From a virus (taxonomy: Duplodnaviria > Caudoviricetes), in IMG/VR virus record IMGVR_UViG_3300028025_000089: DNA of 64,000 bases. One strand, 5' to 3'. The stretch's first letter is position 1, and each line of letters opens with the position of its first letter. Below the pieces are notes generated by a model. It was not told the DNA's origin. It saw only the letters and a list, made by a program, of their open reading frames with translations, and ran no database searches. Below, one piece after another: positions 38,080 through 52,749 of the stretch. The position numbers and the translations under genes are program-made.

Positions 38080-38823
38080 TTAGTTTTTAAGTAATTCTTG
38101 AACTAACTCAAAATACAACTTTTTATATTTTTTAATTGAATTTCTAATTTCTTTAGTGGATAGATTAGTCATCTCCCTAAGTTCAAATAAAATAATATTT
38201 TTGTTAAATTTGTTATTATTTGTGTCAGGAAATATAGTTCCATAATTCTCAAACAAATCACAAATTGCAGATCCTAATTTATGTTCTTGTTCATTACATT
38301 CACTATCATCAAGATCTTGTTTTAGTTTTTCTAAAAACTTTTTGATTACATATTCAGAACTCAAATCGTCATTATCAATTACGTATGACATTTCAGTTCT
38401 ATTAGTAAGATCTGAAGAAATATCTTCATAAGAAATCTTTCGGTTCATTTCCTTTTGGTCTTTCATAATCTGACCCATAAGGTAATTTTTACAAATAGTC
38501 CCTAAGTATGAATACGCTTTCTTTTCTTTTGAAGGTTTAAATTTTTCAATCTTCGTCATCAAAAACGAATGAGTGTCGATATGTATTTCTTCATAATCCA
38601 TATCTTTTCTATATAATTTATATCTTCTAATGATAGAAGATATCATCTTATCTAAAGGATCTTTTAAAAACTCATTATATATTTTGTTACGTTCTTCAAA
38701 AGTTTCGGCCGTAAGAAAGTTTCTCACGGCCTCTTCTTCTCTTACATCAAAATAATTGTTAGTTGTTGGTTTACGTCCTTTCTTTTTCTTTTCTACCGAT
38801 ATTTCTTCACCACTCCCTAACAT
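38080..38823 (-). CDS. phage RNA polymerase sigma-like factor (candidate late sigma)
   Basis: Region-2-like segment ..FLMTKIEKFKPSKEKKAYSYLGTICKNYL and a C-terminal HTH-like segment LREMTNLSTKEIR. Confidence 0.65.
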   Translation of the reverse strand: MLGSGEEISVEKKKKGRKPTTNNYFDVREEEAVRNFLTAETFEERNKIYNEFLKDPLDKMISSIIRRYKLYRKDMDYEEIHIDTHSFLMTKIEKFKPSKEKKAYSYLGTICKNYLMGQIMKDQKEMNRKISYEDISSDLTNRTEMSYVIDNDDLSSEYVIKKFLEKLKQDLDDSECNEQEHKLGSAICDLFENYGTIFPDTNNNKFNKNIILFELREMTNLSTKEIRNSIKKYKKLYFELVQELLKN

Positions 38824-39629
38824 TAAATTTCTTGGGGTTCGTAATTTATATCCCTCTCATTTGTGAAGAAATATTCTTTTTTTGCAGTGTCGATCCAAAA
38901 TTTTGCTTCATCTTGCGTGATTCTATTGTCACCATTTTTGTAATTCCAAAAAATAGATCCTTCTCTTAAATTCATATGTTTGTATCCAATTCTTGGAATT
39001 GTCATAATTTTTGCTGAATTATGGGTCAAACGTAAGAATAATTCATAACCAAAAGTAAGTCTCAAATTAGATTTAAATCCACCCACTTCTAAAAATTTTT
39101 CTTTTCTGAAAACCATACCTGATGTTTGGAAATTTTGGAAGGTTTGTAAAGTTTCATTTGTTAGAATACCCATTTCAGTTGAAATGTTTTGTGCAAATGT
39201 TGCTTCATTTGTAAATCCTGCAAATACCATTTTACTATCAATGTCAACAACAATCGGAAGGAATGCGTCAACATTTTTGTAAATATCCATATAGTTAATG
39301 GCATTTTTAAACCAAATATTTGAATATTCATCGTCAAATTCTAAAATTGAACACCAATTAGAATTTGCAATTGACACTCCGTGATTAACTTGTTTTCCAA
39401 AATTTGGTTCTTCAGACCAACTTTCTAAAACTACATTTAAATCACCAAAATCGTATGAAGTTAAATGTGATGTTAAATAATCTTCTGAACCATGAACAAT
39501 GATTAATTCATTAACATAGTCTTTTTGATTTTTAACTGATTGAATAGCCTTGTCAAAAAAATCAACAAAACTGATCGCTTTTCCTGATTTGATTGGTAAT
39601 ATAACCGATACTTTATTTTCTGTGTTCAT
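38823..39629 (-). CDS. GT2-like glycosyltransferase
   Basis: VSVILP N-terminus; ILEFDDEY acidic motif. Confidence 0.75.
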   Translation of the reverse strand: MNTENKVSVILPIKSGKAISFVDFFDKAIQSVKNQKDYVNELIIVHGSEDYLTSHLTSYDFGDLNVVLESWSEEPNFGKQVNHGVSIANSNWCSILEFDDEYSNIWFKNAINYMDIYKNVDAFLPIVVDIDSKMVFAGFTNEATFAQNISTEMGILTNETLQTFQNFQTSGMVFRKEKFLEVGGFKSNLRLTFGYELFLRLTHNSAKIMTIPRIGYKHMNLREGSIFWNYKNGDNRITQDEAKFWIDTAKKEYFFTNERDINYEPQEI

Positions 39630-39631
39630 AA

Positions 39632-40690
39632 TTAAATAGTTTCAAATTTTGATAGTTGATCTTCAAATGAAGTGATTCTTTTTTCAAAAATGTCACCAAA
39701 TAAACTTAAAGTTTCATTTTCAAATTTTTCTTTATTACTAATTGTTTCGAGTGTTAGATTCATTCTATCAAACAATTCAGGATTTAAATTGTCTTCTAAC
39801 CAATTTTGAATGAAATCAGATAAAACATCTACAATAATTGTTTTGTTGTTCACCCAAAGTCCATTATCTTCATTCATCCAAGAAGGAACAACATCAGGAA
39901 CTAAACCTAATACAGGGATTCCCATTTTCATTGATTCTAATGGGAAAGTCCCAAATGAACTTGTTTGGTCAATCCAAATTGAAATAAAACTATCTTTCAT
40001 TGCTTCGGCAAACTCGTTTTCACTTAAACCTCTAAGGTCTCTAAACGTAATCCATCTATATTGTGGAAACTTTACGTAAAAACTTTTGATAAGATTTGAG
40101 GTGTCTCTTTGATCTCTTGTATGGATATTAATAATTGTTTTTGGTGGGTATTCATTCTTTTGAAAAACATCAGAAATATAAGGAGCCACAACATCTACTG
40201 TAACATTTCTCATTACAGATTGGATTAGTTCTTTTTGTTTTTCTGAAGTTGTAATACATTTGTAAAACCCTAATTGTGTCCAAGATTGGCCAGGTTGTAA
40301 AGTTTCAAATATATGATCAAAGGCTTGACTTAAAACAATTTTACCACATGGTAATTTAGTGATTTGATCCATAACAAATCCGTAAATTTCAGGGATAATA
40401 ATTAAATCATCAGGTGAAATTTCTAAACTTGTTCCTTCGATTGCGCGATGTTCTAACTCAGTCATATATTCTTCACTCAACCATGACGATACTCCAAAGT
40501 ATTCAGGTTTTTCATGTAAAATAATTGCGTTATATCCATTTCTTTTTAATGTTAATGCCATTTGGTAAATGTATCTAACAGATGCCTTGGCGTTTCCTTT
40601 TGTGTCTTGAACCATAAAATAAATTCTTGAAAGTTTTTCTTTCATTCTATTTATGGACAGTTCTAATTTTTCGTGATTGTCGTTGTTCAT
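39632..40690 (-). CDS. GT-B (GT4-like) glycosyltransferase
   Basis: SFGTFPLESMKMGIPV matches the E-x7 GT4 signature. Confidence 0.7.
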   Translation of the reverse strand: MNNDNHEKLELSINRMKEKLSRIYFMVQDTKGNAKASVRYIYQMALTLKRNGYNAIILHEKPEYFGVSSWLSEEYMTELEHRAIEGTSLEISPDDLIIIPEIYGFVMDQITKLPCGKIVLSQAFDHIFETLQPGQSWTQLGFYKCITTSEKQKELIQSVMRNVTVDVVAPYISDVFQKNEYPPKTIINIHTRDQRDTSNLIKSFYVKFPQYRWITFRDLRGLSENEFAEAMKDSFISIWIDQTSSFGTFPLESMKMGIPVLGLVPDVVPSWMNEDNGLWVNNKTIIVDVLSDFIQNWLEDNLNPELFDRMNLTLETISNKEKFENETLSLFGDIFEKRITSFEDQLSKFETI

Positions 40691-40696
40691 ATCCTA

Positions 40697-40954: not shown

Positions 40955-41606
40955 TATGTTTTAAATTTTTAATTATTTCTTGAAACTCAGAAAGTGAAGA
41001 TATTTCGAGTTCTGAAGAAATGTGTTTATTGTATGTGGTATTATATTTTACAACAATTTTATCCACAGGTTTATTTAATAATAAGTCAGGGTTCGCTGTA
41101 AGTAAAATGTCTATTTGATCCCACATGTTATTTTTGGTAATTTCACTAAAAAAAACAACCTTTTCTAAAAGACAACCAAATTTTGATAAAAAGAAAAGTG
41201 ATGAAGGCTTGGATTTCCCAATTTCATTGGAAACAATGATAAGTTCGTTTTTTTCTCTTAATTCAAAATATAGATCGTTTAAAATGTTAAAAGTTGTCAT
41301 TTCTGTTGATGGTGCATGACCAAATAATTCCATGGCATATTCTTCATACATAAAACTAAAAAGTTCTTCATTAGTTTTAAATGAAAAATGTTTTATTAGA
41401 TCAAGACTGGATACATCAGATATTTTTTTATATTCAAACGTTTCTTCAATAGATTCTATCATTTCGGTATTTCCTGACATATCAAGTTCATATGTCTGAC
41501 CTAAAAAATCGTCTTCACTTTTTTCAATTAAATGTTTTTCATAAAGTTGTTCAAATTTTCCAATAGTGTCTCTTAACACACCATTAATATCAAGCCCTAT
41601 TCTCAT
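40944..41606 (-). CDS. HAD-like 5'(3')-nucleotidase family protein
   Basis: MRIGLDINGVLRD, a variant of HAD motif I. The start is probably the ATG at 41609 or 41606 rather than 41669. Confidence 0.6.
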   Translation of the reverse strand: MRIGLDINGVLRDTIGKFEQLYEKHLIEKSEDDFLGQTYELDMSGNTEMIESIEETFEYKKISDVSSLDLIKHFSFKTNEELFSFMYEEYAMELFGHAPSTEMTTFNILNDLYFELREKNELIIVSNEIGKSKPSSLFFLSKFGCLLEKVVFFSEITKNNMWDQIDILLTANPDLLLNKPVDKIVVKYNTTYNKHISSELEISSLSEFQEIIKNLKHNAV

Positions 41607-42324
41607 CATATTTTTGTAAAATTTTAGAAATAAGTGGATTTCTAACCACGTCTTTATCATTGAACTCAAAAGTCCCTATGTCATTTATAAAGTTAAACCT
41701 TGTTATTGCATCGTAAAGACCTGATTGTTTTTTATCCTTATACCTATCGGTTTGTTCTAAATCTCCTGATATGAAAAATTTTGAGTTAGATCCGATTCTT
41801 GTTAAAAGAAGTTTCATTTGATTTGGAGTGGAATTCTGAGCTTCCTCAAAAATTAATATCGAATTGTCGATGTTCATTCCTCTCATATAAGCCAAAGCAA
41901 AAACTTCAATAATTTCGGCGTCTTTTAATTTTTCTTTTGCGTCTTTACCAATCAATTTGTTCAGTAAGTAATAAGATGGGAAAATATACGGATCTAATTT
42001 TTCTTCTAAATTTCCTGGTAATGATCCTAATTTTTCTTCTGCCTCAACTGCCGGTCTAACAATGATAATTTTTTCATAACCATTTCCAGGTTCCATTAAA
42101 AGATCTACAGCCGCTTTCATTGCTATATAACTTTTACCAACACCAGCGGGTCCTGAACATATTGTAATTTGGTTTGATACTAAAATGTTGTAATATTCTT
42201 TTTGATTTTCGGTTAAAAACTTACTTCTTTGTTTTTTCTTTATTACTGTGTTTATGAAATCTTTTTTTGATTGTGGGTTGTTGAAGGATTCTTCGTTTTG
42301 GATTGGTGTTTTTTTTCTTACCAT
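41590..42324 (-). CDS. phoH: PhoH-family ATPase
   Basis: GPAGVGKS, RPAVEA.EKLG.LPG, RG.NI, EAQN, SGD motifs. Confidence 0.93.
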   Translation of the reverse strand: MVRKKTPIQNEESFNNPQSKKDFINTVIKKKQRSKFLTENQKEYYNILVSNQITICSGPAGVGKSYIAMKAAVDLLMEPGNGYEKIIIVRPAVEAEEKLGSLPGNLEEKLDPYIFPSYYLLNKLIGKDAKEKLKDAEIIEVFALAYMRGMNIDNSILIFEEAQNSTPNQMKLLLTRIGSNSKFFISGDLEQTDRYKDKKQSGLYDAITRFNFINDIGTFEFNDKDVVRNPLISKILQKYDENRA

Positions 42325-42325
42325 T

Positions 42326-42769
42326 TTAGTTTTTTAAAAATCTTTTATTTGATTCTTGAGTATAAATTTTTTCTCTCAAGTTTGTTGTTGAAAAATCATG
42401 ATCCCGTTTATTATAAACAAGTTTGATTCCTCTTTTAAGACATAAATCTTTTGCCGTAAAATTTTTGTCTTTATATTCTTCACCTAAAATTCGCACATTT
42501 AAGTCCAATGAAGAAAATATCATTAGTAATTCATCTTCGGTTGTGTAAGGTATTATTTTATCAACGTATTGGACTGCATCTAATTGGATATACCTTTCAA
42601 CTAAAGATTGAATTGGTTTGTTTTTTTCAGTTCTATCTATCGATGGGTCGACTTGAAGTGCACAAATTAAATAATCACAATATTTTTTACATTCCTCCAA
42701 CATTAGAATGTGGCCCGCATGTAGTAGATCAAATGTTGAGCAAGTAATTCCTATAGTTTTTTTATCCAT
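42326..42769 (-). CDS. cytidylyltransferase (TagD/RfaE-like, HIGH family)
   Basis: FDLLHAGH, ER..QL.AV.YVD, STT motifs. Confidence 0.88.
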   Translation of the reverse strand: MDKKTIGITCSTFDLLHAGHILMLEECKKYCDYLICALQVDPSIDRTEKNKPIQSLVERYIQLDAVQYVDKIIPYTTEDELLMIFSSLDLNVRILGEEYKDKNFTAKDLCLKRGIKLVYNKRDHDFSTTNLREKIYTQESNKRFLKN

Positions 42770-42772
42770 AAT

Positions 42773-43747
42773 TTATTTTTTAAAGTGATTAATCCAAAAT
42801 TCAATCATTTCATCTAACATCATTTCAAAAGTATATTCAGGTTCCCAACCTAATTGAGTTCTTATTTTTGTTGAGTCACCTTTTAAATAATCAAGTTCTT
42901 CCGGTCTTGTAAATTTGTGGTGTTGAGTCACATATTTTGTATAATCTAAATCTAATTTTTTAAAAACATACTCAACCATATCTCTAACTGAATGAGTAAC
43001 CATTGTGGACACAACAAAATCATCAGGGGCATCATTGTTAATGATTAAGTGCATTGCTTTTATATAATCTTTTGAATGACCCCAATCTCGATAAGAATCC
43101 AAATTACCTAATACTAATTCATTCTTTAGACCTAATTTAATTTCAACTGCGGTTTTTACCACTTTATTTGTAACAAAATTAGATCCTCTTCTTGGTGATT
43201 CGTGATTAAATAAAATACCATTAGATGCGTGTAATTTATATGCATTTCTGTAATTTCTTACAATGTTATATCCAAACACTTTTGAACACCCATAAGGTGA
43301 CACTGGATTCATTATGGTAGTTTCTCTTTGAAATCCGTCCTCATCTACCGAACTACCAAACATTTCGGAAGAGCTTGCTTGATAAAATCTTGCCTTTGGA
43401 CAACATCTTCGATATGCCTCTAAAATATTAATAACACCAATTGCGTTAGTCTGAACTGTAAATTGAGGAATGTCGTAACTTATTCTAACATGACTTTGAG
43501 CCGCTAAATTGTATATTTCGTCTGGTTGAATGTCGTTTAATAATCTTTCCAAACTACCTTGATCTAAAAGATCTCCATAATAAATGTTTAAATTATTTCT
43601 AATTTCGTCAGTTATTCTACTTTGTTGATTTTCAGGAACTGAATTTCTACGGATAATACCATGCACTTCATAACCCAATTCTAACAGGTATTCTGCCAAA
43701 TAAGATCCGTCCTGTCCGTTTATACCTGTAATAAATGCTTTTTTCAT
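42773..43747 (-). CDS. gmd: GDP-mannose 4,6-dehydratase
   Basis: ITGINGQDGSYLAE, YNLAAQSHV, YQASSSEMFG, SPYGCSK, FNHESPRRG, RDWGH. Confidence 0.97.
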   Translation of the reverse strand: MKKAFITGINGQDGSYLAEYLLELGYEVHGIIRRNSVPENQQSRITDEIRNNLNIYYGDLLDQGSLERLLNDIQPDEIYNLAAQSHVRISYDIPQFTVQTNAIGVINILEAYRRCCPKARFYQASSSEMFGSSVDEDGFQRETTIMNPVSPYGCSKVFGYNIVRNYRNAYKLHASNGILFNHESPRRGSNFVTNKVVKTAVEIKLGLKNELVLGNLDSYRDWGHSKDYIKAMHLIINNDAPDDFVVSTMVTHSVRDMVEYVFKKLDLDYTKYVTQHHKFTRPEELDYLKGDSTKIRTQLGWEPEYTFEMMLDEMIEFWINHFKK

Positions 43748-43760
43748 TGTTTTTTATTTG

Positions 43761-44360
43761 TTATTTATTAAAAATTTTCATTTCTGTTAAGTCTGGCCAA
43801 TCTGTTACGGACCATTTTTTTGGTGGTGTATTGATAGCGTTTTCTAATTTATCTAACCCTAATTGTGCAGTTTCAGGAGTCATATAATAATGAAAACCAA
43901 TCGTATCAATATTTTGGTCTCTCCATGGCACATTAGGTAGTCTACCATCATAAGACATTTTTTTTAAGTTTAAATAATCTTCTTCATTATCAAGTAAAAT
44001 TACACCCCCTCTACCTAAAGATAGGTGTTTTTGATACTGAAAACTGATACACATGAATGTATTGGGAATGTAACTATCTTTTCTCCATAAAACAGCGGCG
44101 TCAATAATTCTTCTTTCACCATAATTTAATGTATAATAGTCTTCCCAATTCTCATCTCTCCACTCTCGTTCTAAACCCATTTTTTCGGCTAAAAAAGGAA
44201 CGGATAAATAAGTCCTTTTTGGGACGTTTATTTTTGTTTCTTTGGTGTATCTTAAACACAACTCAATTCCGTGAGTGCAACTATCTACCGCAATTGCATA
44301 TTTAGATCCAAAAAATTTAGAAATTTGATCTTCAAAGTCAGATATTATTTCGAATGACAT
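43761..44360 (-). CDS. short DegT/DnrJ/EryC1/StrS-family PLP enzyme
   Basis: AVDSCTHG, IDAA, SFQYQKHL..GRGG; only 199 aa. Confidence 0.8.
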   Translation of the reverse strand: MSFEIISDFEDQISKFFGSKYAIAVDSCTHGIELCLRYTKETKINVPKRTYLSVPFLAEKMGLEREWRDENWEDYYTLNYGERRIIDAAVLWRKDSYIPNTFMCISFQYQKHLSLGRGGVILLDNEEDYLNLKKMSYDGRLPNVPWRDQNIDTIGFHYYMTPETAQLGLDKLENAINTPPKKWSVTDWPDLTEMKIFNK

Positions 44361-44435
44361 AATAAACTATTTTAATTTTTATTTACTATCAGTAGATGTT
44401 TTAAAAAATGTAACCCACCACAAACGGAAAGTCAA

Positions 44436-44969
44436 TTATTCATTATCGCGCTTCAATAGAAGCTCGTAATTTTCTAATATTTTTTTAGGATTAATTTTTT
44501 TTACAAGTTTTGCAGGATTCCCTTTGTAGACACCCCATTCTTCCGTGTCTCCCATTAATAAACTACCTGCGGTTAATAAAACACCTTTTCTTAAAATAGA
44601 ACCTGGTAATACAATCGCATTAGTCCCTATATTAGAAAACTCTTCCATAATAACGGGCTCAATTATTTGTTTACCTTTAAATTTTTTTGGGATCATTGCC
44701 CCAAATAAACCACTATCATCAAATCTATCACTACCACATATTATTCGTGATCCTGACATTATATTATTAAACCCTTTTGCTTCGAAATAAGCGGTATTAC
44801 CTCCTATTATAGTGACATAAGGGCTTATATGAACATAGTCCCCAATACTTATTTCAGTGGTGCAATACACTCCTTTATCTATTGACACATGATTACCAAT
44901 ATGTTTTGGTTTGTTTTTAAAAAAAACATCTTGATTGACAACCAAGTCTTTTTTCTTGTTAGATTTCAT
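44436..44969 (-). CDS. hexapeptide-repeat (LbH) acyltransferase
   Basis: IGNHVSI, IGDYVHI, IGTNAIVLPG, GNPAK. Confidence 0.85.
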   Translation of the reverse strand: MKSNKKKDLVVNQDVFFKNKPKHIGNHVSIDKGVYCTTEISIGDYVHISPYVTIIGGNTAYFEAKGFNNIMSGSRIICGSDRFDDSGLFGAMIPKKFKGKQIIEPVIMEEFSNIGTNAIVLPGSILRKGVLLTAGSLLMGDTEEWGVYKGNPAKLVKKINPKKILENYELLLKRDNE

Positions 44970-45659: not shown

Positions 45660-45662
45660 TTT

Positions 45663-46289
45663 TTATATTTTTTTTGTTTCGCAAATTATGAAATGTTTGA
45701 CATTTCCTTCTTGATTTAAATCGTGAGTTTGATAATCCTGATACCAAATGTTTTCAATATCAAAATATTTGTTAATTAAATTTTTTATTTTATCTTCTGT
45801 TATGTAAAAAGTCTTATGCCATTTCATTGATGCTCGACTTTTTTCTTGATCGTATGGTGTTGAAAATAACAACTTACCCCCATCTTTAAGAGATTTATGA
45901 AAGTTATACATTAATTTATCAATATCGGATTCCTCAAAATGCTCCACAGTTTCAAACGAAACTATCATGTCAAATTTATTTTCAAAATCTATATCCAATA
46001 AATTTTTATTATAAAAAAACACTTTATTTTCATTACCATATCTTTCTTTAATCTCATTAATTGTAATTTCATCAATATCGACACCGTGAACTTCTCTACA
46101 ATTTTCAGACAACATCATACTACCATATCCCGATCCACAAGCCATATCGGCAACAATATAATCTTCTTTAATTAATTTTTTTGCCATTTCATACCTTTTA
46201 AAATGTGATTTTTGATACATATTGAAATTATTATAATTCATATCATAATAATTAATATCCATTCTTTCTCCATTATTTTCTAAATTCAT
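45663..46289 (-). CDS. class I SAM-dependent methyltransferase
   Basis: DMACGSGYG, GVDID, FDMIVSFETVEH, GGKLLFSTP. Confidence 0.88.
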   Translation of the reverse strand: MNLENNGERMDINYYDMNYNNFNMYQKSHFKRYEMAKKLIKEDYIVADMACGSGYGSMMLSENCREVHGVDIDEITINEIKERYGNENKVFFYNKNLLDIDFENKFDMIVSFETVEHFEESDIDKLMYNFHKSLKDGGKLLFSTPYDQEKSRASMKWHKTFYITEDKIKNLINKYFDIENIWYQDYQTHDLNQEGNVKHFIICETKKI

Positions 46290-46965
46290 AATTTTTATTT
46301 TTAGTTATGTTTATTTCGTCTTGTAAATTTTTAGTATATGTTTTACTTATTTGATTTGAGTGAGAGGTATTTGCAATTAAACAATCTTGTAAAACACAAG
46401 GAGGACCATATTTTTTATATAATAAAAAATAATAATCACAATCCATTAACATCGTTAAATTTTCGTCAAAAAAATCAATATCATTATTTAACATTGATAA
46501 TACTGATGGAGACCCTATGGTATTTCTACCTTCTATTATATTATCACTCCAAACAGGGGTAATAAAATTGTAAAAATTAACAGAATCGGTAGTATCACAA
46601 GAACCATTTACCAACCATTTTGTTGTTTCACTTGAAAATTGTTCGTCAATTAACTTCAATGAATTATTTTTAACAAAGAAATCATCTTGAAACATAATTT
46701 TTATTATCTCACCTTTGGCATGTTTTAAAGCAAAATTCAAATTAGCCGGACTATTTCCTCTGTTATTTTTATTTTTTAAATAATTTATATTTAAATCTTT
46801 GTGAGAGGATACGAGATCTTTTATAATGTCGTCGACACTATGGTCAGAAATAATAATTTCTAAATCTTTATAATCTTGATCTTTGATTGATAAAAGTAAT
46901 TGATTTAAAAAATAAGAACCTTGACCGTTAATTTCCCATGTGGGAATCACTATTGAAAATCTCAT
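46273..46965 (-). CDS. GT2 glycosyltransferase
   Basis: FSIVIPT, IIISDHS, IMFQDD. Confidence 0.85.
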   Translation of the reverse strand: MRFSIVIPTWEINGQGSYFLNQLLLSIKDQDYKDLEIIISDHSVDDIIKDLVSSHKDLNINYLKNKNNRGNSPANLNFALKHAKGEIIKIMFQDDFFVKNNSLKLIDEQFSSETTKWLVNGSCDTTDSVNFYNFITPVWSDNIIEGRNTIGSPSVLSMLNNDIDFFDENLTMLMDCDYYFLLYKKYGPPCVLQDCLIANTSHSNQISKTYTKNLQDEINITKNKNYEFRK

Positions 46966-47384
46966 GGGTTATTTTTTATAAAAACTTTATCTAATGACTG
47001 ACCCTCATATGGACCCGTTTTATATTCATAAACGATAGTATCATCCTCAAGTATTTCATATGTATGTCCACCATATAAAGTAAAACTTGCATCTCCTGAG
47101 TAAAGTATTGGGGTTGCTATAATTTGATCGTCAATGTCATAAAATATACATCTAACACTACCTTTAATAACAATCCAAGATTCTTGAGCTATTTGTTCAG
47201 TATAATGTCTATCTTTAGTTATGTGTTTGTGTGGATTAAAGGTTTTACCATTTGGCATCTTTAAAGTTGCACATTGTATAAAATTATCTTCGGGAACTAC
47301 CTCAGTTCTACCTTCAATTTCATCTAAACGATTGATTATATGTAGTAATTTACTTGGATCGACCTTTGAGTATATTTTTTCCAT
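46962..47384 (-). CDS. cupin-fold sugar isomerase-like protein (WbuC-like)
   Basis: PHKH...QESWIVIKG...GGH.YE..E..GPY. Confidence 0.7.
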   Translation of the reverse strand: MEKIYSKVDPSKLLHIINRLDEIEGRTEVVPEDNFIQCATLKMPNGKTFNPHKHITKDRHYTEQIAQESWIVIKGSVRCIFYDIDDQIIATPILYSGDASFTLYGGHTYEILEDDTIVYEYKTGPYEGQSLDKVFIKNNP

Positions 47385-47387
47385 TTT

Positions 47388-48191
47388 TTATTTATTTAAG
47401 ATTATCCATTCTGACGGACATAAAGTTGATGTGTTTAAGTGTGCGTTACCAGGACCAAACCACCTATTTGTTGTGATTATTTTCTTTTCAATATTTTGGT
47501 TTAAATACGCTCCCCACCAACTAAATGTGCTATTACAAATTATATTATTTTTACATAAACTCATTGTATATAAATCTAACCAATCTTTACCTGAAGTGTA
47601 GAAAATTTTATTAGGTAAATAATCAAACATATTTTTAACCCCATCTAAATCATCACTAAAGATTAAAAAAGTATTATCTCTACCGATAATTTCTGTCGCT
47701 TCTTTATAATATTCTTCGGTTTGTTGAGGATGTTTATTTGGATATTTAAGATAATCCCCCCTTCTTATATGAATAGAAGTGTAATTTCTAATTTCGGGTA
47801 AATTTTTTAATATTTCATTTTTAATTTCATCAGTTGGTTTAAAAATATCTAAGATAGTTTGTTTATTATTGATAAAATATTTTTCGCTTTGGAAGTATCC
47901 GTCTAACAATAAATTAGTTCCTTTGATATAATTGATATTTTGATGATTAAATTGTCTTTCAGTGTAAACTGAAAAACTTTCAGGTAATTTATCAATAAAA
48001 TTAATATTTCTTAAAATATTGTTGGCATAATTTTCATAATTTGGATCTATTGGTCTTATGAATTCTTTTGAAAAAATATAATCTACATTATTATCAATTG
48101 CCATACTAATTGACGCTGCAAGTTTAAATATTACATTTCCTAACCCTCCTCTGTGGTTAGTTGTGATAAAATTTTTCATTTTATTAACCAT
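47388..48191 (-). CDS. alpha-1,2-fucosyltransferase-like protein (GT11)
   Basis: GGLGN.IF, GYFQSEKYF, SIHIRRGDY, IFSDD, NSTFSWWGAYL. Confidence 0.9.
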   Translation of the reverse strand: MVNKMKNFITTNHRGGLGNVIFKLAASISMAIDNNVDYIFSKEFIRPIDPNYENYANNILRNINFIDKLPESFSVYTERQFNHQNINYIKGTNLLLDGYFQSEKYFINNKQTILDIFKPTDEIKNEILKNLPEIRNYTSIHIRRGDYLKYPNKHPQQTEEYYKEATEIIGRDNTFLIFSDDLDGVKNMFDYLPNKIFYTSGKDWLDLYTMSLCKNNIICNSTFSWWGAYLNQNIEKKIITTNRWFGPGNAHLNTSTLCPSEWIILNK

Positions 48192-48805
48192 TTATAATCA
48201 GTTATTTTATTTTCTATATCACTATAACTAACTCGTTGAGTTGCGATCATGGGATAGAACGAATAAACATTTAATTTTTTCTGTAGTTCGGAATAAATTA
48301 CATCAAGAGCGTTATCACACTTTTTTAACCTCTCTAATATTTGTTTAAATGTTTTTTTATTTATTGCAACACAATGAGTGCTGAAAGTGCTATGTAATTT
48401 ACAAACTTTATCATTGATAATGTTTGGTGGTTTTACTCCCATATGAGTATTATGATTTCCACCAAAATATAACATATCCCAATCTTCAGGTAGTAAGTCA
48501 AAGAATGTGTCCATATTTTTAACTTGATCTGTAAATTCAACATCATCTTCTAAGATTAATATTGAATTATAGTTATTTTTAATTGATTCTTCTAGTATTT
48601 TTATATTGGTTAATACTAATGCCAATCTTGATGGTGTAACAAATCCATTTGAGTTTTGCGGTAATTCTTTACCATCAACCGCTTTAAACCTTTCAATTCC
48701 AGTAAGATCGTTTTTATTGAATTCGATAAGACATTCTTCCCATCTATCAAATCTTCTGTCGAGGTTAATGCAAAATGTTTTGTCAAAAAAATCAGTTATC
48801 TTCAT
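48176..48805 (-). CDS. GT25 glycosyltransferase
   Basis: CINLDRR.DR, A.DG, LILEDD, WDMLYFG. Confidence 0.85.
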   Translation of the reverse strand: MKITDFFDKTFCINLDRRFDRWEECLIEFNKNDLTGIERFKAVDGKELPQNSNGFVTPSRLALVLTNIKILEESIKNNYNSILILEDDVEFTDQVKNMDTFFDLLPEDWDMLYFGGNHNTHMGVKPPNIINDKVCKLHSTFSTHCVAINKKTFKQILERLKKCDNALDVIYSELQKKLNVYSFYPMIATQRVSYSDIENKITDYKWLIK

Positions 48806-50183
48806 TTTTAAATATATTATTTTTAGACATTATATAATCATATAATTCTTTTGTATTTTTATTTGCCTCAGTTGATACAGTCCCATCTTTTTCGTGGTGA
48901 AAATATGTAAATAGAGGTTTTGGTATTCTTTTACCAATATATCCTTTATTCATCATTTTAATCCATAGATCATAATCTTCCCATCCTTTCATTTCTTCAT
49001 CATATCCTCCACACATATCAAAAGCTTCCCTACTGAACATAGAGCAATTAACAATAAACGGTCCTTGTATTAACCTATCTTTAGACCATTCAGGTCTTTT
49101 TTCAATTCCGGTCATTTGACCGACATGGTTTGTATCACAATATATTGGACTTAAATTTTTATTCTTTTTGATTAAATTTATACAGGTCTGTATATAATCA
49201 GGTGAAATCATATCGTCCGAATCTAAAGGTAATATATATTCACCTGAAGAATGTTTAATTCCATTGTTTCTTGCTGATGACGGACCAGCATTTTTTTGAT
49301 GTATGATTTTAATATTTGGGTGATTAGATAAACTATTAAGTTTATTAATTACGTATTGATTTTGTGAACCATCATTTACAATTACTAACTCAATATTTTT
49401 ATATGTTGAATTGAATACCGACTCCAATGATTTTTGAAACATATTCCCATAATTGTGGATTGGCATAATTATAGAAACTATTGGTTGTTTTTTGTTGTAA
49501 TCAAAAATAGGTAAATCATTTTCAACTATTTGTGGTAAATTATCTTTAAAAGATTCAACAAATTTAATTCTATTTTGTTCCCATTGTTGGTTGGTTTGAC
49601 CAATTGATAAATGAGTAATAGGAATGTTTGATACAACACCAATCTTAACTCCATCTAAATAATTTTCGAATGTAAAAGTAGTGTCGTAAAAGTGAAACCC
49701 ATTGACAATTTCATTAAAGTTTTTTGATATTTTATTTTTTTGTATCATCATAAAAACACCATCAACAATTATAGATTGTAAAACTTTATTTCCAAAAGGT
49801 TCGTTATATTTTGATAACCATTTTTTACCGTTATGTTGATGGTATACTTGACCAATCATTTCGGATGAAATTTCCCACCACATACCTGATTCAGGATAAT
49901 ATCTTGTACCAGCAACCCCCAAAATACCGTATTCAGGTCTTTTTTGGAAATGTTCCATAACTCTTTTTCCCCAATATTTTTTCTCAAAAAGAATATCATC
50001 ATGACATAAAACAACGATGTTATTACTACTTTCATTTAATATTTCATTATAAACAACTGATAATGATTTTTCTCCATTATTAATTTTTTGAATGATCTCA
50101 ACATCATCAATACCACAAGTATCTTTAACCTGTTTTATAAAATTAGGTTTTGGAGTTTTTGTGCTAAACCCTACTGTAATCAT
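48792..50183 (-). CDS. two-domain GT2 glycosyltransferase
   Basis: N-terminal HDDI...FHFYD domain; C-terminal VSIIMP..N, VNDGS, LDSDD, EDYDLW domain. Confidence 0.88.
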   Translation of the reverse strand: MITVGFSTKTPKPNFIKQVKDTCGIDDVEIIQKINNGEKSLSVVYNEILNESSNNIVVLCHDDILFEKKYWGKRVMEHFQKRPEYGILGVAGTRYYPESGMWWEISSEMIGQVYHQHNGKKWLSKYNEPFGNKVLQSIIVDGVFMMIQKNKISKNFNEIVNGFHFYDTTFTFENYLDGVKIGVVSNIPITHLSIGQTNQQWEQNRIKFVESFKDNLPQIVENDLPIFDYNKKQPIVSIIMPIHNYGNMFQKSLESVFNSTYKNIELVIVNDGSQNQYVINKLNSLSNHPNIKIIHQKNAGPSSARNNGIKHSSGEYILPLDSDDMISPDYIQTCINLIKKNKNLSPIYCDTNHVGQMTGIEKRPEWSKDRLIQGPFIVNCSMFSREAFDMCGGYDEEMKGWEDYDLWIKMMNKGYIGKRIPKPLFTYFHHEKDGTVSTEANKNTKELYDYIMSKNNIFKNEDN

Positions 50184-50206
50184 ACTTTTTTATTTAATTT
50201 TGTTAT

Positions 50207-50809
50207 TTATATCCCTGTCGACCCAAACCCGTTATCGTTTCTATCTTTATTTCCCAAATCATTTTTTTCTATTAATTTGACCCACTTTCCTGAAACTACA
50301 GGACAAAGAACTGCTTGTGCGATTTTTTGACCTTTTTCTATTTTTACTTTTTCTCTTGTGGTGTTAAATAAAATGATTTGTATTTCACCTAAATAACCTT
50401 GATCTACAGTGCCAGGTGAGTTTAATACCATAAGACCTTGTTTTAAGGCCAAACCACTTTTTGATCTTACTTGAATTTCATAACCTTCTGGTATATCAAA
50501 ATGTAATCCTGTTGATACTAATTGTCTATCAAGGGAATGTATCCATACGTCTTCGGTTGAATATAGATCAAACCCTGAATCACTAATATATGCGTATTTT
50601 GGATCTACTGCGTTTTCTTTTGTTTTCTTATATGAAAGATCAATAGTTGGTATATATTCTTGAATCTCTTTTTCTAATTCAGGTATATCTAACCCTAATG
50701 TTTCCATAATGGCATTATAATCAACATCATTATTTTCATCATCTAATGAATCCAAAAATTTTAACATGTCTTGTATTTCTTCTTCAGAAACATTATTAAA
50801 ATTACTCAT
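50207..50809 (-). CDS. dut: trimeric dUTPase with an acidic N-terminal extension
   Basis: DSGFDL, RSKSGLA, GTVDQGYLGEI, AQAV, R..NGFGSTG. Confidence 0.95.
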   Translation of the reverse strand: MSNFNNVSEEEIQDMLKFLDSLDDENNDVDYNAIMETLGLDIPELEKEIQEYIPTIDLSYKKTKENAVDPKYAYISDSGFDLYSTEDVWIHSLDRQLVSTGLHFDIPEGYEIQVRSKSGLALKQGLMVLNSPGTVDQGYLGEIQIILFNTTREKVKIEKGQKIAQAVLCPVVSGKWVKLIEKNDLGNKDRNDNGFGSTGI

Positions 50810-51534
50810 TATTTTAAACTTTTTAATTTCATTATTGCGTCAATCAAAACCTCAACATCTCTTTCACAATAGTCAGATATTTCTTTTAATCTGTTGTGAC
50901 TCCAATACGCTTCGTGAACCATTCCACCATTTACTTCACCATCTTTTGGTGTTGGAATATCCAAACATGCACACATCAAATCTAAAGAACCAATTGCAGT
51001 ATATGCACCGTATTGCCAAATTTCTTTTGTGTCAATTGCTTTAACTTCCCAAGGTTTTGTATCGTATGACGGTAAAAGTTTAGATGGCATAATACCATTA
51101 ATAATCATTCTTTTTGCCAACATCGGAATGTCAAAGTTTTTTAGATTATGACCACACAGATAAAAATCTAATTTGTGACATCTGTTTAAAAGATCTCTAA
51201 CCTCTGTTAGTAATTTGGTTTCATCATCACCCGAGAATGTTTGCATTTTTGTTTGTCCGTTGTCTAAAACAAATGCCATGGATACACAAACAATCTTGGC
51301 AAACTCAGGAACAAGTGCCGCTCTTTTTCTAAACACTATGTCCATATGTTCTTCAGTTGTTCTATCTTCACCAAATTCTTTATCTTCGGGGAATCTTTTT
51401 AAAAACCAATCAAAATATTTGTCAAATTGTTCGGCAACTCTTGGGTTAGTTTTAATACATGATTGATAGTCAGCACACCCCCCAACGGTCTCAATATCTA
51501 AAAATAAAATTTTTGTAAGTGGTATATTAATCAT
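50809..51534 (-). CDS. DEDDy 3'-5' exonuclease (PolB-exo-like)
   Basis: FLDIET, HN.KNFDIP, YCERDV. Confidence 0.85.
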   Translation of the reverse strand: MINIPLTKILFLDIETVGGCADYQSCIKTNPRVAEQFDKYFDWFLKRFPEDKEFGEDRTTEEHMDIVFRKRAALVPEFAKIVCVSMAFVLDNGQTKMQTFSGDDETKLLTEVRDLLNRCHKLDFYLCGHNLKNFDIPMLAKRMIINGIMPSKLLPSYDTKPWEVKAIDTKEIWQYGAYTAIGSLDLMCACLDIPTPKDGEVNGGMVHEAYWSHNRLKEISDYCERDVEVLIDAIMKLKSLK

Positions 51535-51537
51535 TTT

Positions 51538-52749
51538 TTATTTAATTAAAGATTTGTAAAATTCTGCTCTTGTTTTTGTCACGACATTAAGATCATATCT
51601 GTCTTTTACCGTTTCATAAAGTCTTTCACCAAGATCGGTAATCATATTTGGATTGTCAACTAACTTTTTAACGTGTTTTGCCCAATCACTATGATTTTTA
51701 ACCTCATCAACAAGAAGAGCGTTTCCATCTGTAAATTGACCATTTTTAACAGCACTTTTCAAATCTATGGTGTAAGGACCTACGTTTGATGCAATAAGTG
51801 CCTTCTTATAAAATCCTGCCTCAATTACTTTTAATTGAGATTTCATTCTATTAAAAATGTGGTTTTTAATTGGTGCTAATGAAATGTCAAATTTAGAATA
51901 ATTTCTTGCGTAACTATCGACAGGTCTTGTCCATACACGAACATAATTTTCATTTTCAATTGCGGGGTATTCACCTTCCTCAAATTTGTCTAAAAACAAC
52001 TTATATTCAGGTGTGATAATTTTATAATTGTTTGTAAAAATTTCCTCATATCTAACCCAAACCGTTTCTTGTGGTTTAATTGGTCTTTGTGTTTGTTGTC
52101 CTGTTTCTTTATTAATTTCAGTAACAGTTCCACGAGTATCAAACCCACAAACATAGTATTGTAATTTATCTTGAATTGGTGATAATTTAGAAACCATGCC
52201 ATCTAACAATTTCAAATCATATAAATGTGATGATCCTCCTAACCACCCAACTCTAATTTTATCAGAAGGTAATGTTGGTTCATTGAACTGTGGTTCATTA
52301 GGGTCAATTGCGTTTGGTAATACCAAAACATTTTTATTGAACTTTCTAATCTCGTTGGCGAACAATTCGGTTGTTGTTGTTACATAATCCGCAGCCTTAA
52401 GGTTCTCAACAATTTTTGTGTGAATTTTATTTTCAATAATCAACTGATGAATAGGGTGTTCTTTTGTTGGTAACCAATAATCATCAATATCGGCAATTAC
52501 AATAATACCCAAACTTTGAAGACTTTTGATTAACATTGGGCAATTTTCGATTGGTCCTACACTTCTATGAAAATGAACAATTTGATATTTTTTCCAAAAG
52601 TTTAAATCATTAATTCTTGGTTGATATTCAATATCAACATGAAAATCATTTGGATATAGATTTTGGAGTTTGATGTGTGGATCCACACTTCTGAATCTAC
52701 CTACGCCTGACGTATCGCTAGGTAAAACTAAAACATTAATTTTTGACAT
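51538..52749 (-). CDS. GT-B (GT4-like) glycosyltransferase
   Basis: DIDDYW, GW.GGSSH, DISLAP, KSQLKVIEAG..KKALIAS. Confidence 0.8.
   Translation of the reverse strand: MSKINVLVLPSDTSGVGRFRSVDPHIKLQNLYPNDFHVDIEYQPRINDLNFWKKYQIVHFHRSVGPIENCPMLIKSLQSLGIIVIADIDDYWLPTKEHPIHQLIIENKIHTKIVENLKAADYVTTTTELFANEIRKFNKNVLVLPNAIDPNEPQFNEPTLPSDKIRVGWLGGSSHLYDLKLLDGMVSKLSPIQDKLQYYVCGFDTRGTVTEINKETGQQTQRPIKPQETVWVRYEEIFTNNYKIITPEYKLFLDKFEEGEYPAIENENYVRVWTRPVDSYARNYSKFDISLAPIKNHIFNRMKSQLKVIEAGFYKKALIASNVGPYTIDLKSAVKNGQFTDGNALLVDEVKNHSDWAKHVKKLVDNPNMITDLGERLYETVKDRYDLNVVTKTRAEFYKSLIK

What the first reader, a model, noticed from the sequence alone, without database searches (positions are those of the whole stretch)
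38823..52749. ~14 kb glycan-synthesis cluster with a near-complete deoxy/amino-sugar pathway
Seen: seven glycosyltransferases (three GT2-like, two GT4-like, GT11, GT25), gmd, a DegT-family enzyme, an LbH acyltransferase, two methyltransferases, a cupin and a cytidylyltransferase. The block 42326-50183 sits between phoH and dut like a swappable cassette. Established: Gmd plus a DegT aminotransferase plus an acetyltransferase gives GDP-N-acetylperosamine-type sugars; Gmd also feeds GDP-fucose or colitose, and GT11 enzymes transfer such sugars. No fcl/colC reductase is in this window. Inference: the phage builds a methylated or acylated glycan for its virion, the host surface or DNA.
Basis: partly seen in the sequence, partly recalled or inferred. 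Interest (0 to 1): 0.7.

Follow-up and report, generated by a model that had tools for sequence, protein, structure and literature searches.

The report
Swappable sugar-coat gene cassette in jumbo phage
A large uncultured freshwater phage carries, between its dUTPase and phoH genes, a block of soluble sugar-building enzymes that close relatives replace wholesale with different sets; such blocks are already known in large aquatic phages, and what the sugar chain is attached to is still unknown.

Summary
No Fcl is in the window.

The "swappable cassette" idea is strongly supported. Among IMG/VR relatives I found 34 distinct dut-phoH fillings of 3.3-16.6 kb. They hold 391 co-directional ORFs in 162 protein clusters. 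Relatives 90-98% identical in the flanks lose all DNA homology exactly between about 42,760 and 50,190.

- The DegT-like protein is half-size (199 aa, large domain only) but keeps the PLP lysine. It belongs to a large family of roughly 210-aa proteins.
- Gmd, mini-DegT, LbH, cupin and a separate GT11 clade travel together only in the three cassettes that have Gmd and GT11 but no Fcl. This points to an N-acetylated amino-deoxyhexose made from GDP-mannose.
- No cassette protein has more than one hydrophobic segment. Five near-complete relatives lack an initiating transferase, flippase and ligase.

The acceptor is unresolved. Virion proteins are my best guess, then host surface glycan. The kind is already published for cyano- and pelagimyophages, and this scan found it before on other DNA.

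The parts
38823..39629 (-). Conserved core GT2 glycosyltransferase (268 aa), outside the swapped block
   Evidence: Pfam Glyco_tranf_2_2 and Glycos_transf_2, E about 5e-8. Homologue present in 91 of the 150 loci held.
39632..40690 (-). Conserved core GT-B glycosyltransferase (352 aa), AmGGT/Agt-like
   Evidence: No Pfam hit. PDB 8XSG (AmGGT), E 2.6e-8 over residues 137-336. AmGGT is a retaining GT-B related to the Actinobacillus Agt enzymes (PMC12159676). Homologue present in 94 of the 150 loci held.
41590..42324 (-). PhoH-like ATPase; conserved downstream flank of the cassette
   Evidence: Pfam PhoH, E 2.9e-63. Used as an anchor to fetch 80 related loci.
42326..42769 (-). Cytidylyl/adenylyltransferase-like protein (147 aa); substrate undecided
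   Evidence: Pfam CTP_transf_like, E 2e-12. NCBIfam rfaE_dom_II 73.5 bits and TagD 65 bits, both far below cut-off. PDB ECT 63 bits, TagD 60 bits, HldC 29 bits. Present in 10 of 34 cassettes, always next to phoH. Part of the homologous flank in the closest relatives.
42773..43747 (-). GDP-mannose 4,6-dehydratase (Gmd), last gene of the swapped block
   Evidence: Pfam GDP_Man_Dehyd, E 1.7e-115. TIGR01472 383 bits against a 415-bit cut-off. 67% identical to a 595-kb uncultured phage and 47-49% to cyanophage Gmd.
43761..44360 (-). Half-size DegT-family PLP protein ('mini-DegT', 199 aa): large domain only, catalytic lysine kept
   Evidence: Pfam DegT, E 3e-14, with the best stretch on profile positions 165-236 of 360. 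K111 aligns with the PLP lysine of perosamine synthase 3BN1. D87, S106 and K111 are invariant in 9 cassette copies. AF2 pLDDT 83. Top Foldseek hit is GDP-perosamine synthase 3DR4, E 8e-8, TMq 0.64. All 8000 scored candidates passed E 0.001, and the 120 listed are 199-226 aa.
44436..44969 (-). LbH (hexapeptide) acyltransferase, NeuD/PglB/VioB-like
   Evidence: Pfam Hexapep, E 2e-7. TIGR03570 47.9 bits against a 160.8-bit cut-off. Present in 4 cassettes, including all 3 that have Gmd next to mini-DegT.
44979..46289 (-). Two SAM methyltransferases: TylF-type 44979-45659 and class I 45663-46289
   Evidence: Pfam TylF, E 1e-15; Methyltransf_25, E 6e-17.
46273..46965 (-). GT2 glycosyltransferase (230 aa)
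   Evidence: Pfam Glycos_transf_2, E 5e-12.
46962..47384 (-). WbuC-family cupin (140 aa) with an HxH...E...H motif
   Evidence: TIGR04366, E 3.9e-9, 36.5 bits against a 42-bit cut-off. H52, H54, E68 and H107 are invariant. Found only in the 3 cassettes that have Gmd and GT11 but no Fcl. 6292 homologues; the 120 listed are 82-100% identical.
47388..48191 (-). GT11 (fucosyltransferase-family) glycosyltransferase of a distinct clade
   Evidence: Pfam Glyco_transf_11, E 1e-21. In a tree of 16 cassette GT11s, the three from Fcl-less mini-DegT cassettes form one clade with 99/100 support on a 0.8 branch.
48176..48805 (-). GT25 glycosyltransferase (209 aa)
   Evidence: Pfam Glyco_transf_25, E 3e-9.
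48792..50183 (-). Two-domain GT in every cassette, first gene in 26 of the 34 (including here); N-domain semi-conserved, C-domain variable
   Evidence: Pfam Glyco_tranf_2_5 (residues 27-210) plus Glycos_transf_2 (residues 237-343). Present in 34 of 34 cassettes. Mean pairwise identity is 56% for the N-domain and 26% for the C-domain. Only 30-37% identical to the closest relatives' copy but 85% to L023.
50207..51534 (-). dUTPase (50207-50809) and PolB-exo-like protein (50809-51534); conserved upstream flank
   Evidence: Pfam dUTPase, E 8e-25; DNA_pol_B_exo2, E 9e-14. The dUTPase was the anchor for 69 related loci.
51538..52749 (-). Conserved core GT-B glycosyltransferase (403 aa), first gene after a strong terminator
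   Evidence: phrog_7162 glycosyltransferase, E 3e-46. Weak Glyco_trans_1_4 and Glyco_transf_4 in Pfam. Homologue present in 72 of the 150 loci held.
52802..52827 (-). Intrinsic-terminator-like hairpin that closes the upstream unit; the GT403-to-sigma block starts after it
   Evidence: 11-bp stem followed by a T-run. Sequence read directly.

Best explanation
This is a two-layer glycan-assembly locus of a roughly 300-kb freshwater T4-type jumbo phage.

Layer 1 is conserved in nearly all relatives. It comprises three glycosyltransferases (38823-39629, 39632-40690, 51538-52749) and the N-terminal domain of the two-domain GT (48792-50183).

Layer 2 is the block 42773-50183. Homologous recombination in the conserved dUTPase and phoH (or cytidylyltransferase) flanks exchanges it as a whole or in sub-modules. 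As a result, near-identical phages carry unrelated enzyme sets.

In this window, layer 2 encodes a GDP-mannose branch:
1. Gmd makes GDP-4-keto-6-deoxymannose.
2. A WbuC-type cupin may isomerise or epimerise it.
3. The half-size DegT transaminates it.
4. The LbH enzyme N-acetylates it.
5. A divergent GT11 transfers the product.
6. GT25 and the GT2 enzymes extend the chain, and the two methyltransferases O-methylate it.

All the enzymes are soluble, so the chain is built in the cytoplasm by sequential transfer. The most likely acceptor is the phage's own virion (fibre) proteins.

Shown here: gene content, cassette exchange and its breakpoints, the family assignments, and the absence of lipid-carrier machinery. 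Inferred: enzyme activities, the identity of the sugar, and the acceptor.
For: **Cassette exchange**
- There are 34 distinct fillings of 3.3-16.6 kb. All 391 ORFs are co-directional and fall into 162 clusters.
- Relatives with 96-98% (L009), 94% (L002) and 90-92% (L003) nucleotide identity in the flanks lose all homology between window positions 42758/42772 and 50180/50198.
- L030 has flanks only about 70-73% identical but shares the cassette at 77-80%.
- Cassette content against PhoH identity gives Spearman 0.14. The window shares Jaccard 0.05-0.06 with its two nearest relatives and 0.67 with L030.
- GC content inside the cassette is the same as in the flanks.

**Glycan theme of the whole pool**
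- Families found include FkbM, MT_24, CmcI and TylF methyltransferases; GT2, GT10, GT11, GT25 and GT92; Fcl; full-length DegT; FdtA; and UDP-GlcNAc 2-epimerase.

**Pathway**
- Gmd is assigned with confidence.
- The mini-DegT keeps the PLP lysine and aspartate and is best matched by GDP-perosamine synthase.
- Cultured Flavobacterium phage immuto has a mini-DegT next to an LbH 'pilin glycosylation protein' and an SDR.
- Fcl is in 16 of 34 cassettes. It is missing from exactly the three that carry the cupin, have mini-DegT next to Gmd, and carry LbH.
- Their GT11s form a separate clade with 99/100 support.

**Cytoplasmic assembly and a protein acceptor**
- None of the 391 proteins has two or more hydrophobic segments.
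- Five 93-100% complete relatives lack Bac_transf, WecA/MraY, Wzx and Wzy_C/ligase families, with controls positive.
- Three of those five encode a domain above the curated cut-off of the Aah/TibC protein O-heptosyltransferase family.
- The only PDB relative of the core 352-aa GT is AmGGT, whose closest homologues are the Actinobacillus Agt enzymes. From memory, not checked here, A. pleuropneumoniae Agt extends protein-linked glucose in the cytoplasm.
Against: - No glycan, glycoprotein or expression data exist for this phage.
- The operon context is nucleotide metabolism plus a sigma-like gene, not virion genes. The phage's suspected late motif is absent upstream of the cassette on the coding strand.
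- O-antigen glycosyltransferases of bacteria are also soluble or peripheral, so the lack of membrane segments does not exclude work on host lipid-linked intermediates.
- The mini-DegT lacks the C-terminal domain present in all solved sugar aminotransferases, and it occurs in three cassettes without Gmd. Its substrate here is therefore not certain.
- LbH, cupin and nucleotidyltransferase scores are all well below the curated family cut-offs.
- The co-occurrence of the five-gene set rests on three related cassettes, which may reflect one inheritance event.
Confidence: 0.5

Rival explanations
1. The cassette remodels the host's surface glycan. The soluble phage enzymes act on the host's own undecaprenyl-linked O-chain, capsule or glycoprotein-glycan intermediates during infection. 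The cell surface changes, which blocks superinfection or stops progeny from sticking to infected cells and debris. The host supplies the initiating transferase, flippase and ligase.
For: - GT2, GT11 and GT25, together with Gmd, Fcl, DegT and LbH, are the classic content of O-antigen and LOS loci.
- The equivalent islands of cyano- and pelagimyophages are read this way in the literature (PMC7029224; PMC12801897).
- The operon sits with nucleotide-metabolism genes, not virion genes. It has a Bacteroidota-like TAnnTTTG element after the terminator, which fits pre-late expression.
- Diversifying exchange is what one expects of a receptor-related trait.
Against: - No phage-encoded initiating transferase, flippase, polymerase or ligase exists in five near-complete relatives. 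Every step beyond sugar addition would have to tolerate 34 or more different foreign structures.
- The lineage carries protein-type glycosyltransferases.
- No experiment in any phage has yet shown this role for such islands.
Confidence: 0.27
2. The amino-sugar branch does not operate. The half-size DegT is a degenerate or non-catalytic protein. Gmd simply boosts GDP-4-keto-6-deoxymannose for the host's Fcl, and the GT11 transfers ordinary L-fucose.
For: - The DegT lacks about 45% of the canonical enzyme.
- All characterised GT11 enzymes use GDP-fucose (from my own knowledge of CAZy, not checked here).
- Mini-DegT occurs without Gmd in three cassettes.
Against: - Mini-DegT is under clear purifying selection, with the PLP lysine, aspartate and serine invariant across copies 33-83% identical.
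- Its family is very large, with about 200-226-aa members.
- It is again adjacent to an LbH and an SDR in a cultured phage.
- Fcl is missing from exactly the three cassettes that pair mini-DegT with Gmd and carry the cupin and LbH, and their GT11 is a separate clade.
Confidence: 0.15
3. The enzymes glycosylate phage DNA, building a complex glycan on a hypermodified base to evade restriction.
For: - The cassette lies between dUTPase with an exonuclease-like gene on one side and PhoH with an NT5C-like gene on the other.
- Diverse DNA glycans made by phage GTs have been reported (10.1101/2023.12.21.572611, listed).
Against: - No Tet/JBP homologue was found in five near-complete relatives, although the control for this family was silent.
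- The thymidylate-synthase-family gene scores 200-303 bits, like a genuine ThyA.
- From my own knowledge, GT11, GT25 and GT10, O-methyltransferases and N-acetylated amino sugars are not known in DNA modification.
- Seven or more GTs per cassette would be unprecedented for DNA.
Confidence: 0.05

Closest known systems
'LPS / cell-wall' gene clusters and hypervariable islands of large T4-like cyanomyophages and pelagimyophages (P-SSM2, S-SCSM1, S-SCSM2R; pelagimyophage HRC islands)
   Same: - Many soluble GTs (GT2, GT10, GT11, GT25), Gmd and NDP-sugar SDRs, and a TagD-like cytidylyltransferase sit in non-syntenic regions of big aquatic myoviruses.
- S-SCSM2R even has a 53%-identical mini-DegT among its GT genes.
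- The function is untested there too.
   Different: - The slot here is a fixed dUTPase-phoH site in a roughly 300-kb freshwater lineage, probably of Bacteroidota, away from the tail-fibre island.
- Exchange is documented at strain level, with exact breakpoints and a constant two-domain GT in every filling.
- The published reading is host O-chain modification. The lineage here also carries protein-type glycosyltransferases.
GDP-N-acetylperosamine pathway (Gmd, Per, PerB) of Caulobacter crescentus and E. coli O157
   Same: - Gmd, a DegT-family PLP protein with the catalytic lysine, and an LbH acetyltransferase are adjacent.
- The best structural match of the DegT-like model is Caulobacter GDP-perosamine synthase.
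   Different: - The aminotransferase is 199 aa instead of about 370 and lacks the C-terminal domain.
- An obligatory-looking WbuC-type cupin travels with the set.
- The transferase is GT11-like. From memory, the known perosamine transferases are GT4-type.
- The product is unproven.
Glycan cluster of cultured Flavobacterium phage vB_FspM_immuto (MW353175, genes 90-102)
   Same: It holds a run of GTs, a methyltransferase, a full-length DegT, a 214-aa mini-DegT (33% identical to the window's) directly followed by an LbH 'pilin glycosylation protein' and an SDR. It is a culturable model of the same module.
   Different: It is a 160-kb phage with a different genomic slot and no Gmd annotated. No glycan work on it turned up in the papers that name it.
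Virus-encoded virion glycosylation: mycobacteriophages (Freeman et al. 2023) and chlorovirus PBCV-1 / mimivirus fibril glycans
   Same: Viral soluble GTs, with viral Gmd and methyltransferases in the giant viruses, build glycans on capsid or fibre proteins in the cytoplasm without host lipid-carrier pathways. Clade-specific gene sets give different glycans. These points are from my own knowledge; Freeman et al. is cited.
   Different: Here no glycoprotein has been shown and the genes are not next to capsid genes. The hosts and virus lineages are unrelated.
Bacterial O-antigen / capsule loci held between conserved flanking genes (for example galF-gnd in E. coli)
   Same: A fixed chromosomal slot, conserved flanks that drive homologous exchange, a mosaic of nucleotide-sugar genes, GTs and modifying enzymes, and many 'serotypes' within one species.
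   Different: There is no Wzx/Wzy, ABC transporter, initiating phosphoglycosyltransferase or ligase, and the locus sits in a lytic-type phage genome.

Membership tests
GDP-N-acetylperosamine pathway (Gmd-Per-PerB) | GDP-mannose 4,6-dehydratase | tested here: met
   PF16363, E 1.7e-115. TIGR01472 scores 383 bits, just under the 415-bit equivalog cut-off.
GDP-N-acetylperosamine pathway (Gmd-Per-PerB) | Full two-domain fold-type-I (DegT) aminotransferase of about 370 aa with the PLP lysine | tested here: not met
   The lysine (K111), aspartate (D87) and serine (S106) are present. The protein is 199 aa and the C-terminal domain is absent. It aligns to residues about 40-262 of 3BN1 with an internal deletion.
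GDP-N-acetylperosamine pathway (Gmd-Per-PerB) | PerB-type LbH N-acetyltransferase | tested here: inconclusive
   Hexapep, E 2e-7. The NeuD/PglB/VioB subfamily scores 47.9 bits against a 160.8-bit cut-off.
GDP-N-acetylperosamine pathway (Gmd-Per-PerB) | Product is GDP-4-acetamido-4,6-dideoxy-D-mannose | not testable with these tools
   This needs enzymology with LC-MS or NMR. The co-travelling cupin leaves a 3-amino or an L-configured isomer open.
GDP-L-fucose supply plus GT11 fucosylation | Fcl (GDP-L-fucose synthase) alongside Gmd | tested here: not met
   No Fcl in the window by tblastn. Fcl (NF047922, E 3.9e-70) is present in 16 of 34 relatives' cassettes.
GDP-L-fucose supply plus GT11 fucosylation | GT11-family transferase | tested here: met
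   PF01531, E 1.2e-21. It falls in a separate clade from the GT11s of Fcl-containing cassettes.
Wzx/Wzy- or ABC-type O-antigen/capsule locus | Initiating polyprenyl-phosphate glycosyl-phosphate transferase (WbaP/WecA type) | tested here: not met
   PF02397 and PF00953 are absent from five 93-100% complete relatives, with controls positive. None is in the window's cassette.
Wzx/Wzy- or ABC-type O-antigen/capsule locus | Flippase, polymerase or ligase (multi-pass membrane proteins) | tested here: not met
   None of the 391 cassette proteins has two or more hydrophobic segments. PF01943 and PF04932 are absent from the five relatives.
Hypervariable glycan ('LPS') islands of large aquatic myoviruses | Multiple soluble GTs and NDP-sugar enzymes in a region that is non-syntenic between otherwise collinear relatives | tested here: met
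   for variability. for content. Published descriptions are PMC7029224 and PMC12801897.
Phage virion protein glycosylation system | A protein-acting glycosyltransferase encoded by the phage | tested here: inconclusive
   An Aah/TibC-family domain (TIGR04414) scores 276-291 bits against a 200-bit cut-off in 3 of 5 near-complete relatives. The window's own genome beyond the window could not be searched. The core 352-aa GT resembles AmGGT.
Phage virion protein glycosylation system | Glycan demonstrated on capsid, tail or fibre proteins | not testable with these tools
   This needs purified virions and mass spectrometry.
Phage DNA glycosylation | Enzyme that makes a hydroxymethyl or other acceptor base (dCMP/dUMP hydroxymethylase, TET/JBP) | tested here: inconclusive
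   PF12851 was not found, but its control was silent. The PF00303 members score 200-303 bits, like true ThyA.

The most novel reading that the evidence does not exclude
The phages of this lineage have exchangeable 'glycotypes'. A constant set of core transferases starts a glycan on virion fibre proteins, and the dut-phoH cassette decides its outer structure. In this variant, the Fcl reductase is replaced by a cupin, a half-size aminotransferase and an acetyltransferase. This would yield a GDP-linked acetamido analogue of a 6-deoxyhexose (PerNAc, a 3-acetamido isomer or an L-fucose-like 4-acetamido sugar), which a dedicated GT11 clade transfers. That would be a new nucleotide-sugar route run by a minimal one-domain DegT enzyme.
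Probability: 0.2. Interest if true: 0.7.

Novelty: new member of a known kind. Interest (0 to 1): 0.45.

Why it matters
Large aquatic phages devote 3-17 kb of a fixed genome slot to sugar chemistry that changes between strains as fast as bacterial O-antigens do. Nobody knows what the glycan decorates.

This locus offers a clean natural experiment: the same flanks, at 90-98% identity, with unrelated cassettes. It also offers a defined five-gene module, and two cultured phages (Flavobacterium phage immuto and Synechococcus phage S-SCSM2R) carry the same unusual half-size aminotransferase.

Finding the acceptor would show whether phage particles wear variable self-made sugar coats or whether phages re-dress their hosts. 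Either answer bears on host range, superinfection and phage-grazer or phage-defence interactions in lakes and oceans. The mini-DegT family, which is very large in metagenomes (all 8000 scored candidates matched), would also be a new minimal form of a well-studied enzyme class.

Tried and rejected
- **Megablast of the 14-kb region against GenBank phages:** no match.
- **The window's own assembly:** not held. The nearest record, G001, covers only window positions 1-26207, so it says nothing about the cluster.
- **AF2 model of the cupin from a 20-sequence, 87%-identical alignment:** pLDDT 51, unusable, so no fold search was run. A direct PDB sequence search with the cupin gave only chance hits to designed beta-propeller proteins.
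- **PDB sequence search with the 403-aa GT:** nothing.
- **GT41/HMW1C-type N-glycosyltransferase, as a partner for the Agt-like GT:** not found in five relatives.
- **Flanking direct or inverted repeats, or att-like sites, at the cassette borders:** only AT-rich chance matches, so site-specific insertion was rejected in favour of homologous recombination in the flanks.
- **Late-motif TATTTATA on the coding strand upstream of the cassette:** none. The match at 50204-50211 is on the other strand. The sigma-70 promoter scan was no better than shuffles.
- **Frameshifted full-length DegT gene, as an explanation for the 199-aa ORF:** rejected. The short form is conserved in 9 cassettes and in a very large metagenomic family.
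- **A host genomic island:** rejected. The window holds terminase, portal and major head genes, and the relatives are 93-100% complete viral contigs.

Full report
**What is in the sequence**

All ORFs from 35764 to 55493 lie on the minus strand. They overlap or abut each other, and the only sizeable gap inside the cassette is at 44361-44435.

- Glycosyltransferases: a GT2 (38823-39629), a GT-B (39632-40690), a GT2 (46273-46965), a GT11 (47388-48191), a GT25 (48176-48805), a two-domain GT (48792-50183) and a GT-B (51538-52749).
- Sugar-nucleotide and modifying enzymes: Gmd (42773-43747), a DegT-like protein (43761-44360), an LbH acyltransferase (44436-44969), a TylF-type and a class-I methyltransferase (44979-46289), a WbuC-family cupin (46962-47384) and a cytidylyltransferase-like protein (42326-42769).
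- Non-glycan genes interspersed in the span: PhoH, dUTPase, a PolB-exonuclease-like protein and an NT5C-like protein (a weak lead only). A sigma-factor-like protein (also a lead) lies just below the span, at 38080-38823.
- No Fcl is present in the window.

A strong terminator at 52827-52802 precedes the 403-aa GT. The block from that GT down to the sigma-like gene therefore looks like one unit.

**What the genome is**

The window also holds a terminase, a portal, a T4-type major head protein and a Lon-like protease. The nearest database phages for Gmd and PhoH are uncultured 595-735-kb phages. IMG/VR holds hundreds of relatives, several of them 272-304 kb and rated 93-100% complete. This is an uncultured freshwater jumbo phage. 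Earlier notes of this scan suggest a Bacteroidota host, which I did not test.

**The cassette**

I fetched 149 loci anchored on PhoH or dUTPase and merged those from the same contig. This gave 44 loci with both anchors and 34 distinct intervals of 3.3-16.6 kb (median 8.6 kb). They hold 391 ORFs, all on the same strand as the flanks. The ORFs fall into 162 protein clusters, 94 of them singletons.

- The genes outside the interval are found in 56-103 of the 150 loci held. The genes inside it are found in only 5-63.
- Against the closest relatives, DNA homology stops exactly at window 42758-42772 and resumes at 50180-50198. The flanks are 96-98% identical in L009, 94% in L002 and 90-92% in L003. 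Nothing alignable lies in between.
- L030 has flanks only about 70-73% identical but shares the cassette from Gmd to GT11 at 77-80%. L039 shares only sub-modules, and one of their junctions falls in the single intergenic gap.
- Cassette content is almost uncorrelated with PhoH identity (Spearman 0.14). The window shares Jaccard 0.05-0.06 with its two nearest neighbours and 0.67 with L030.
- GC content does not change across the cassette, and no border repeats exist.

The simplest mechanism is homologous recombination in the conserved flanks between co-infecting relatives, drawing on a phage-adapted gene pool.

**A constant gene with a variable half**

Every cassette contains the two-domain GT, and in 26 of the 34 it is the first gene after the dUTPase. 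Its N-terminal Glyco_tranf_2_5 domain averages 56% pairwise identity. Its C-terminal GT2 domain averages 26%, with a median of 15%. The window's copy is only 30-37% identical to those of its nearest relatives but 85% identical to L023. It therefore moves with the cassette. This fits a constant first step followed by variable steps.

**The gene pool**

Representatives of the recurrent clusters are Fcl (NF047922, E 3.9e-70), other SDRs, GT10, GT2, GT92, GT7C-containing and Galactosyl_T-like enzymes, FkbM and MT_24 methyltransferases, and a full-length DegT. A tally over 132 further clusters is led by these families:

| Family | Clusters |
|---|---|
| FkbM methyltransferase | 13 |
| GT2 | 10 |
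| MT_24 | 8 |
| DegT | 4 |
| CmcI rhamnosyl O-methyltransferase | 4 |
| FdtA | 2 |
| UDP-GlcNAc 2-epimerase | 2 |

The whole pool is glycan chemistry, with unusually many methyltransferases.

**The pathway in this window**

The DegT-like ORF is not a broken gene. Nine cassette copies of 199-241 aa, 33-83% identical to the window's, keep D87, S106 and K111 invariant. K111 aligns with the PLP lysine of perosamine synthase.

The AF2 model (pLDDT 83) matches the large domain of sugar aminotransferases. GDP-perosamine synthase ranks first, at E 8e-8 and TMq 0.64. The family is very large. All 8000 scored candidates matched, and the 120 listed are 199-226 aa. It occurs in cultured phages. In Flavobacterium phage immuto it is followed by an LbH protein and an SDR. 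In Synechococcus phage S-SCSM2R it sits among GT genes, where it was published as an 'antibiotic synthesis' gene.

Across the 34 cassettes, Fcl accompanies Gmd in most cases. The window, L030 and L039 are the only cassettes with Gmd and GT11 but no Fcl. They are also the only ones with the WbuC-type cupin, and all three carry the LbH and have the mini-DegT next to Gmd. Their GT11s form a separate clade with 99/100 support.

I read this as a replacement of the Fcl step by cupin, aminotransferase and acetyltransferase. The product would be an N-acetylated amino-dideoxyhexose made from GDP-4-keto-6-deoxymannose. GDP-PerNAc is the simplest candidate. A 3-amino product or an L-configured product would result if the cupin acts as a ketoisomerase or an epimerase. 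These steps are inference. The three cassettes are related, so the co-occurrence may be a single event.

The cytidylyltransferase-like protein scores similarly against heptose-1-phosphate adenylyltransferase and against TagD/ECT-type enzymes, all far below the cut-offs. Its substrate is open.

**Where the glycan goes**

None of the 391 cassette proteins has two or more hydrophobic segments. Five near-complete relatives lack Bac_transf, WecA/MraY, Wzx and Wzy_C/ligase families, with positive controls. The phage therefore cannot start, flip or ligate a lipid-linked glycan by itself.

Three of those five relatives encode a domain above the curated cut-off of the Aah/TibC protein O-heptosyltransferase family, inside 755-1497-aa ORFs. 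The core 352-aa GT has one PDB relative, AmGGT, whose closest homologues are the Actinobacillus Agt enzymes. From memory, A. pleuropneumoniae Agt extends N-linked glucose on adhesins in the cytoplasm. These points favour cytoplasmic glycosylation of phage proteins.

Against that, the operon sits among nucleotide-metabolism genes, not virion genes, and lacks the suspected late motif. Ordinary O-antigen GTs are also soluble. Published work on the equivalent islands of cyano- and pelagimyophages favours host O-chain modification, without experiments.

DNA glycosylation seems unlikely. No TET-like gene was found, although the control for that family was silent. The ThyA-family genes score like true ThyA. 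From my own knowledge, these enzyme families are also not ones known from DNA modification.

My odds are about 0.45-0.5 for virion proteins, 0.27 for host surface and 0.05 for DNA, with the remainder for something else.

**Comparison with what is known, and verdict**

Glycan-gene islands that differ between otherwise collinear large aquatic myoviruses are published (PMC7029224; PMC12801897; the P-SSM2 'LPS' clusters). This scan has already reported similar swappable islands in other freshwater jumbo-phage DNA. The finding is therefore a new member of a known kind.

This locus adds four things:
- a fixed dut-phoH slot with base-level breakpoints in a 90-98% identical background;
- a constant two-domain GT with a swapped second domain;
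- the half-size DegT family;
- an Fcl-replacing five-gene module with its own GT11 clade.

The acceptor and the sugar remain to be measured. Two cultured phages that carry the mini-DegT module make that feasible.

Noticed in passing
window 30365-30440: A roughly 70-nt element here matches four further places (77-82% identity) in the related record G001, at 54245, 54600, 55179 and 59016. It looks like a dispersed intergenic repeat of this phage lineage.
   Followed up: no
window 38080-38823 (-): This 247-aa protein, whose stop codon region overlaps the start of the core GT2 gene, has no Pfam hit. It scores 0.99 in the protein atlas with viral clusters named RNA polymerase sigma factor; one lower-ranked cluster (0.98) carries Sigma70_r2 in 21% of its members. 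A late-type TATTTATA lies just downstream of it, at 38072-38079.
   Followed up: partly
window 40944-41669 (-): This ORF gives an NT5C (deoxyribonucleotidase)-like lead (0.95). The atlas record starts at residue 21, so the real start is probably the internal ATG and the apparent 80-nt overlap with phoH is an artefact of the TTG call.
   Followed up: partly
window 46962-47384 (-): The WbuC-type cupin is 82-100% identical across the 120 best of 6292 database clusters. That is far more conserved than any neighbouring cassette gene, which suggests unusually strong constraint or very recent spread.
   Followed up: partly
window 44361-44435 (-): The only intergenic gap inside the cassette contains TTGACT-N17-TACATT. 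It coincides with the junction between sub-modules shared with L030 and L039, so it may be an internal promoter and a recombination joint.
   Followed up: partly
L152 (G004:175587-179597) and L153 (G006:137747-141745): Relatives carry Aah/TibC-type heptosyltransferase domains (276-291 bits against a 200-bit cut-off) inside very long ORFs of 755-1497 aa, that is, multi-domain fusions.
   Followed up: partly
PQ898602.1 (Synechococcus phage S-SCSM2R) 231859-232443: [quoted passage not shown] Its neighbours are glycosyltransferases, so it is more likely a sugar aminotransferase.
   Followed up: partly
window 27239-29140 (+): The major head protein is 633 aa, but its best match to the head-protein family covers only residues 341-610. 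About 340 N-terminal residues are unexplained.
   Followed up: no
window 12142-14181 (-): A 679-aa Lon-like ATP-dependent protease (phrog_4871, E 2.6e-239) lies upstream of the head module.
   Followed up: no
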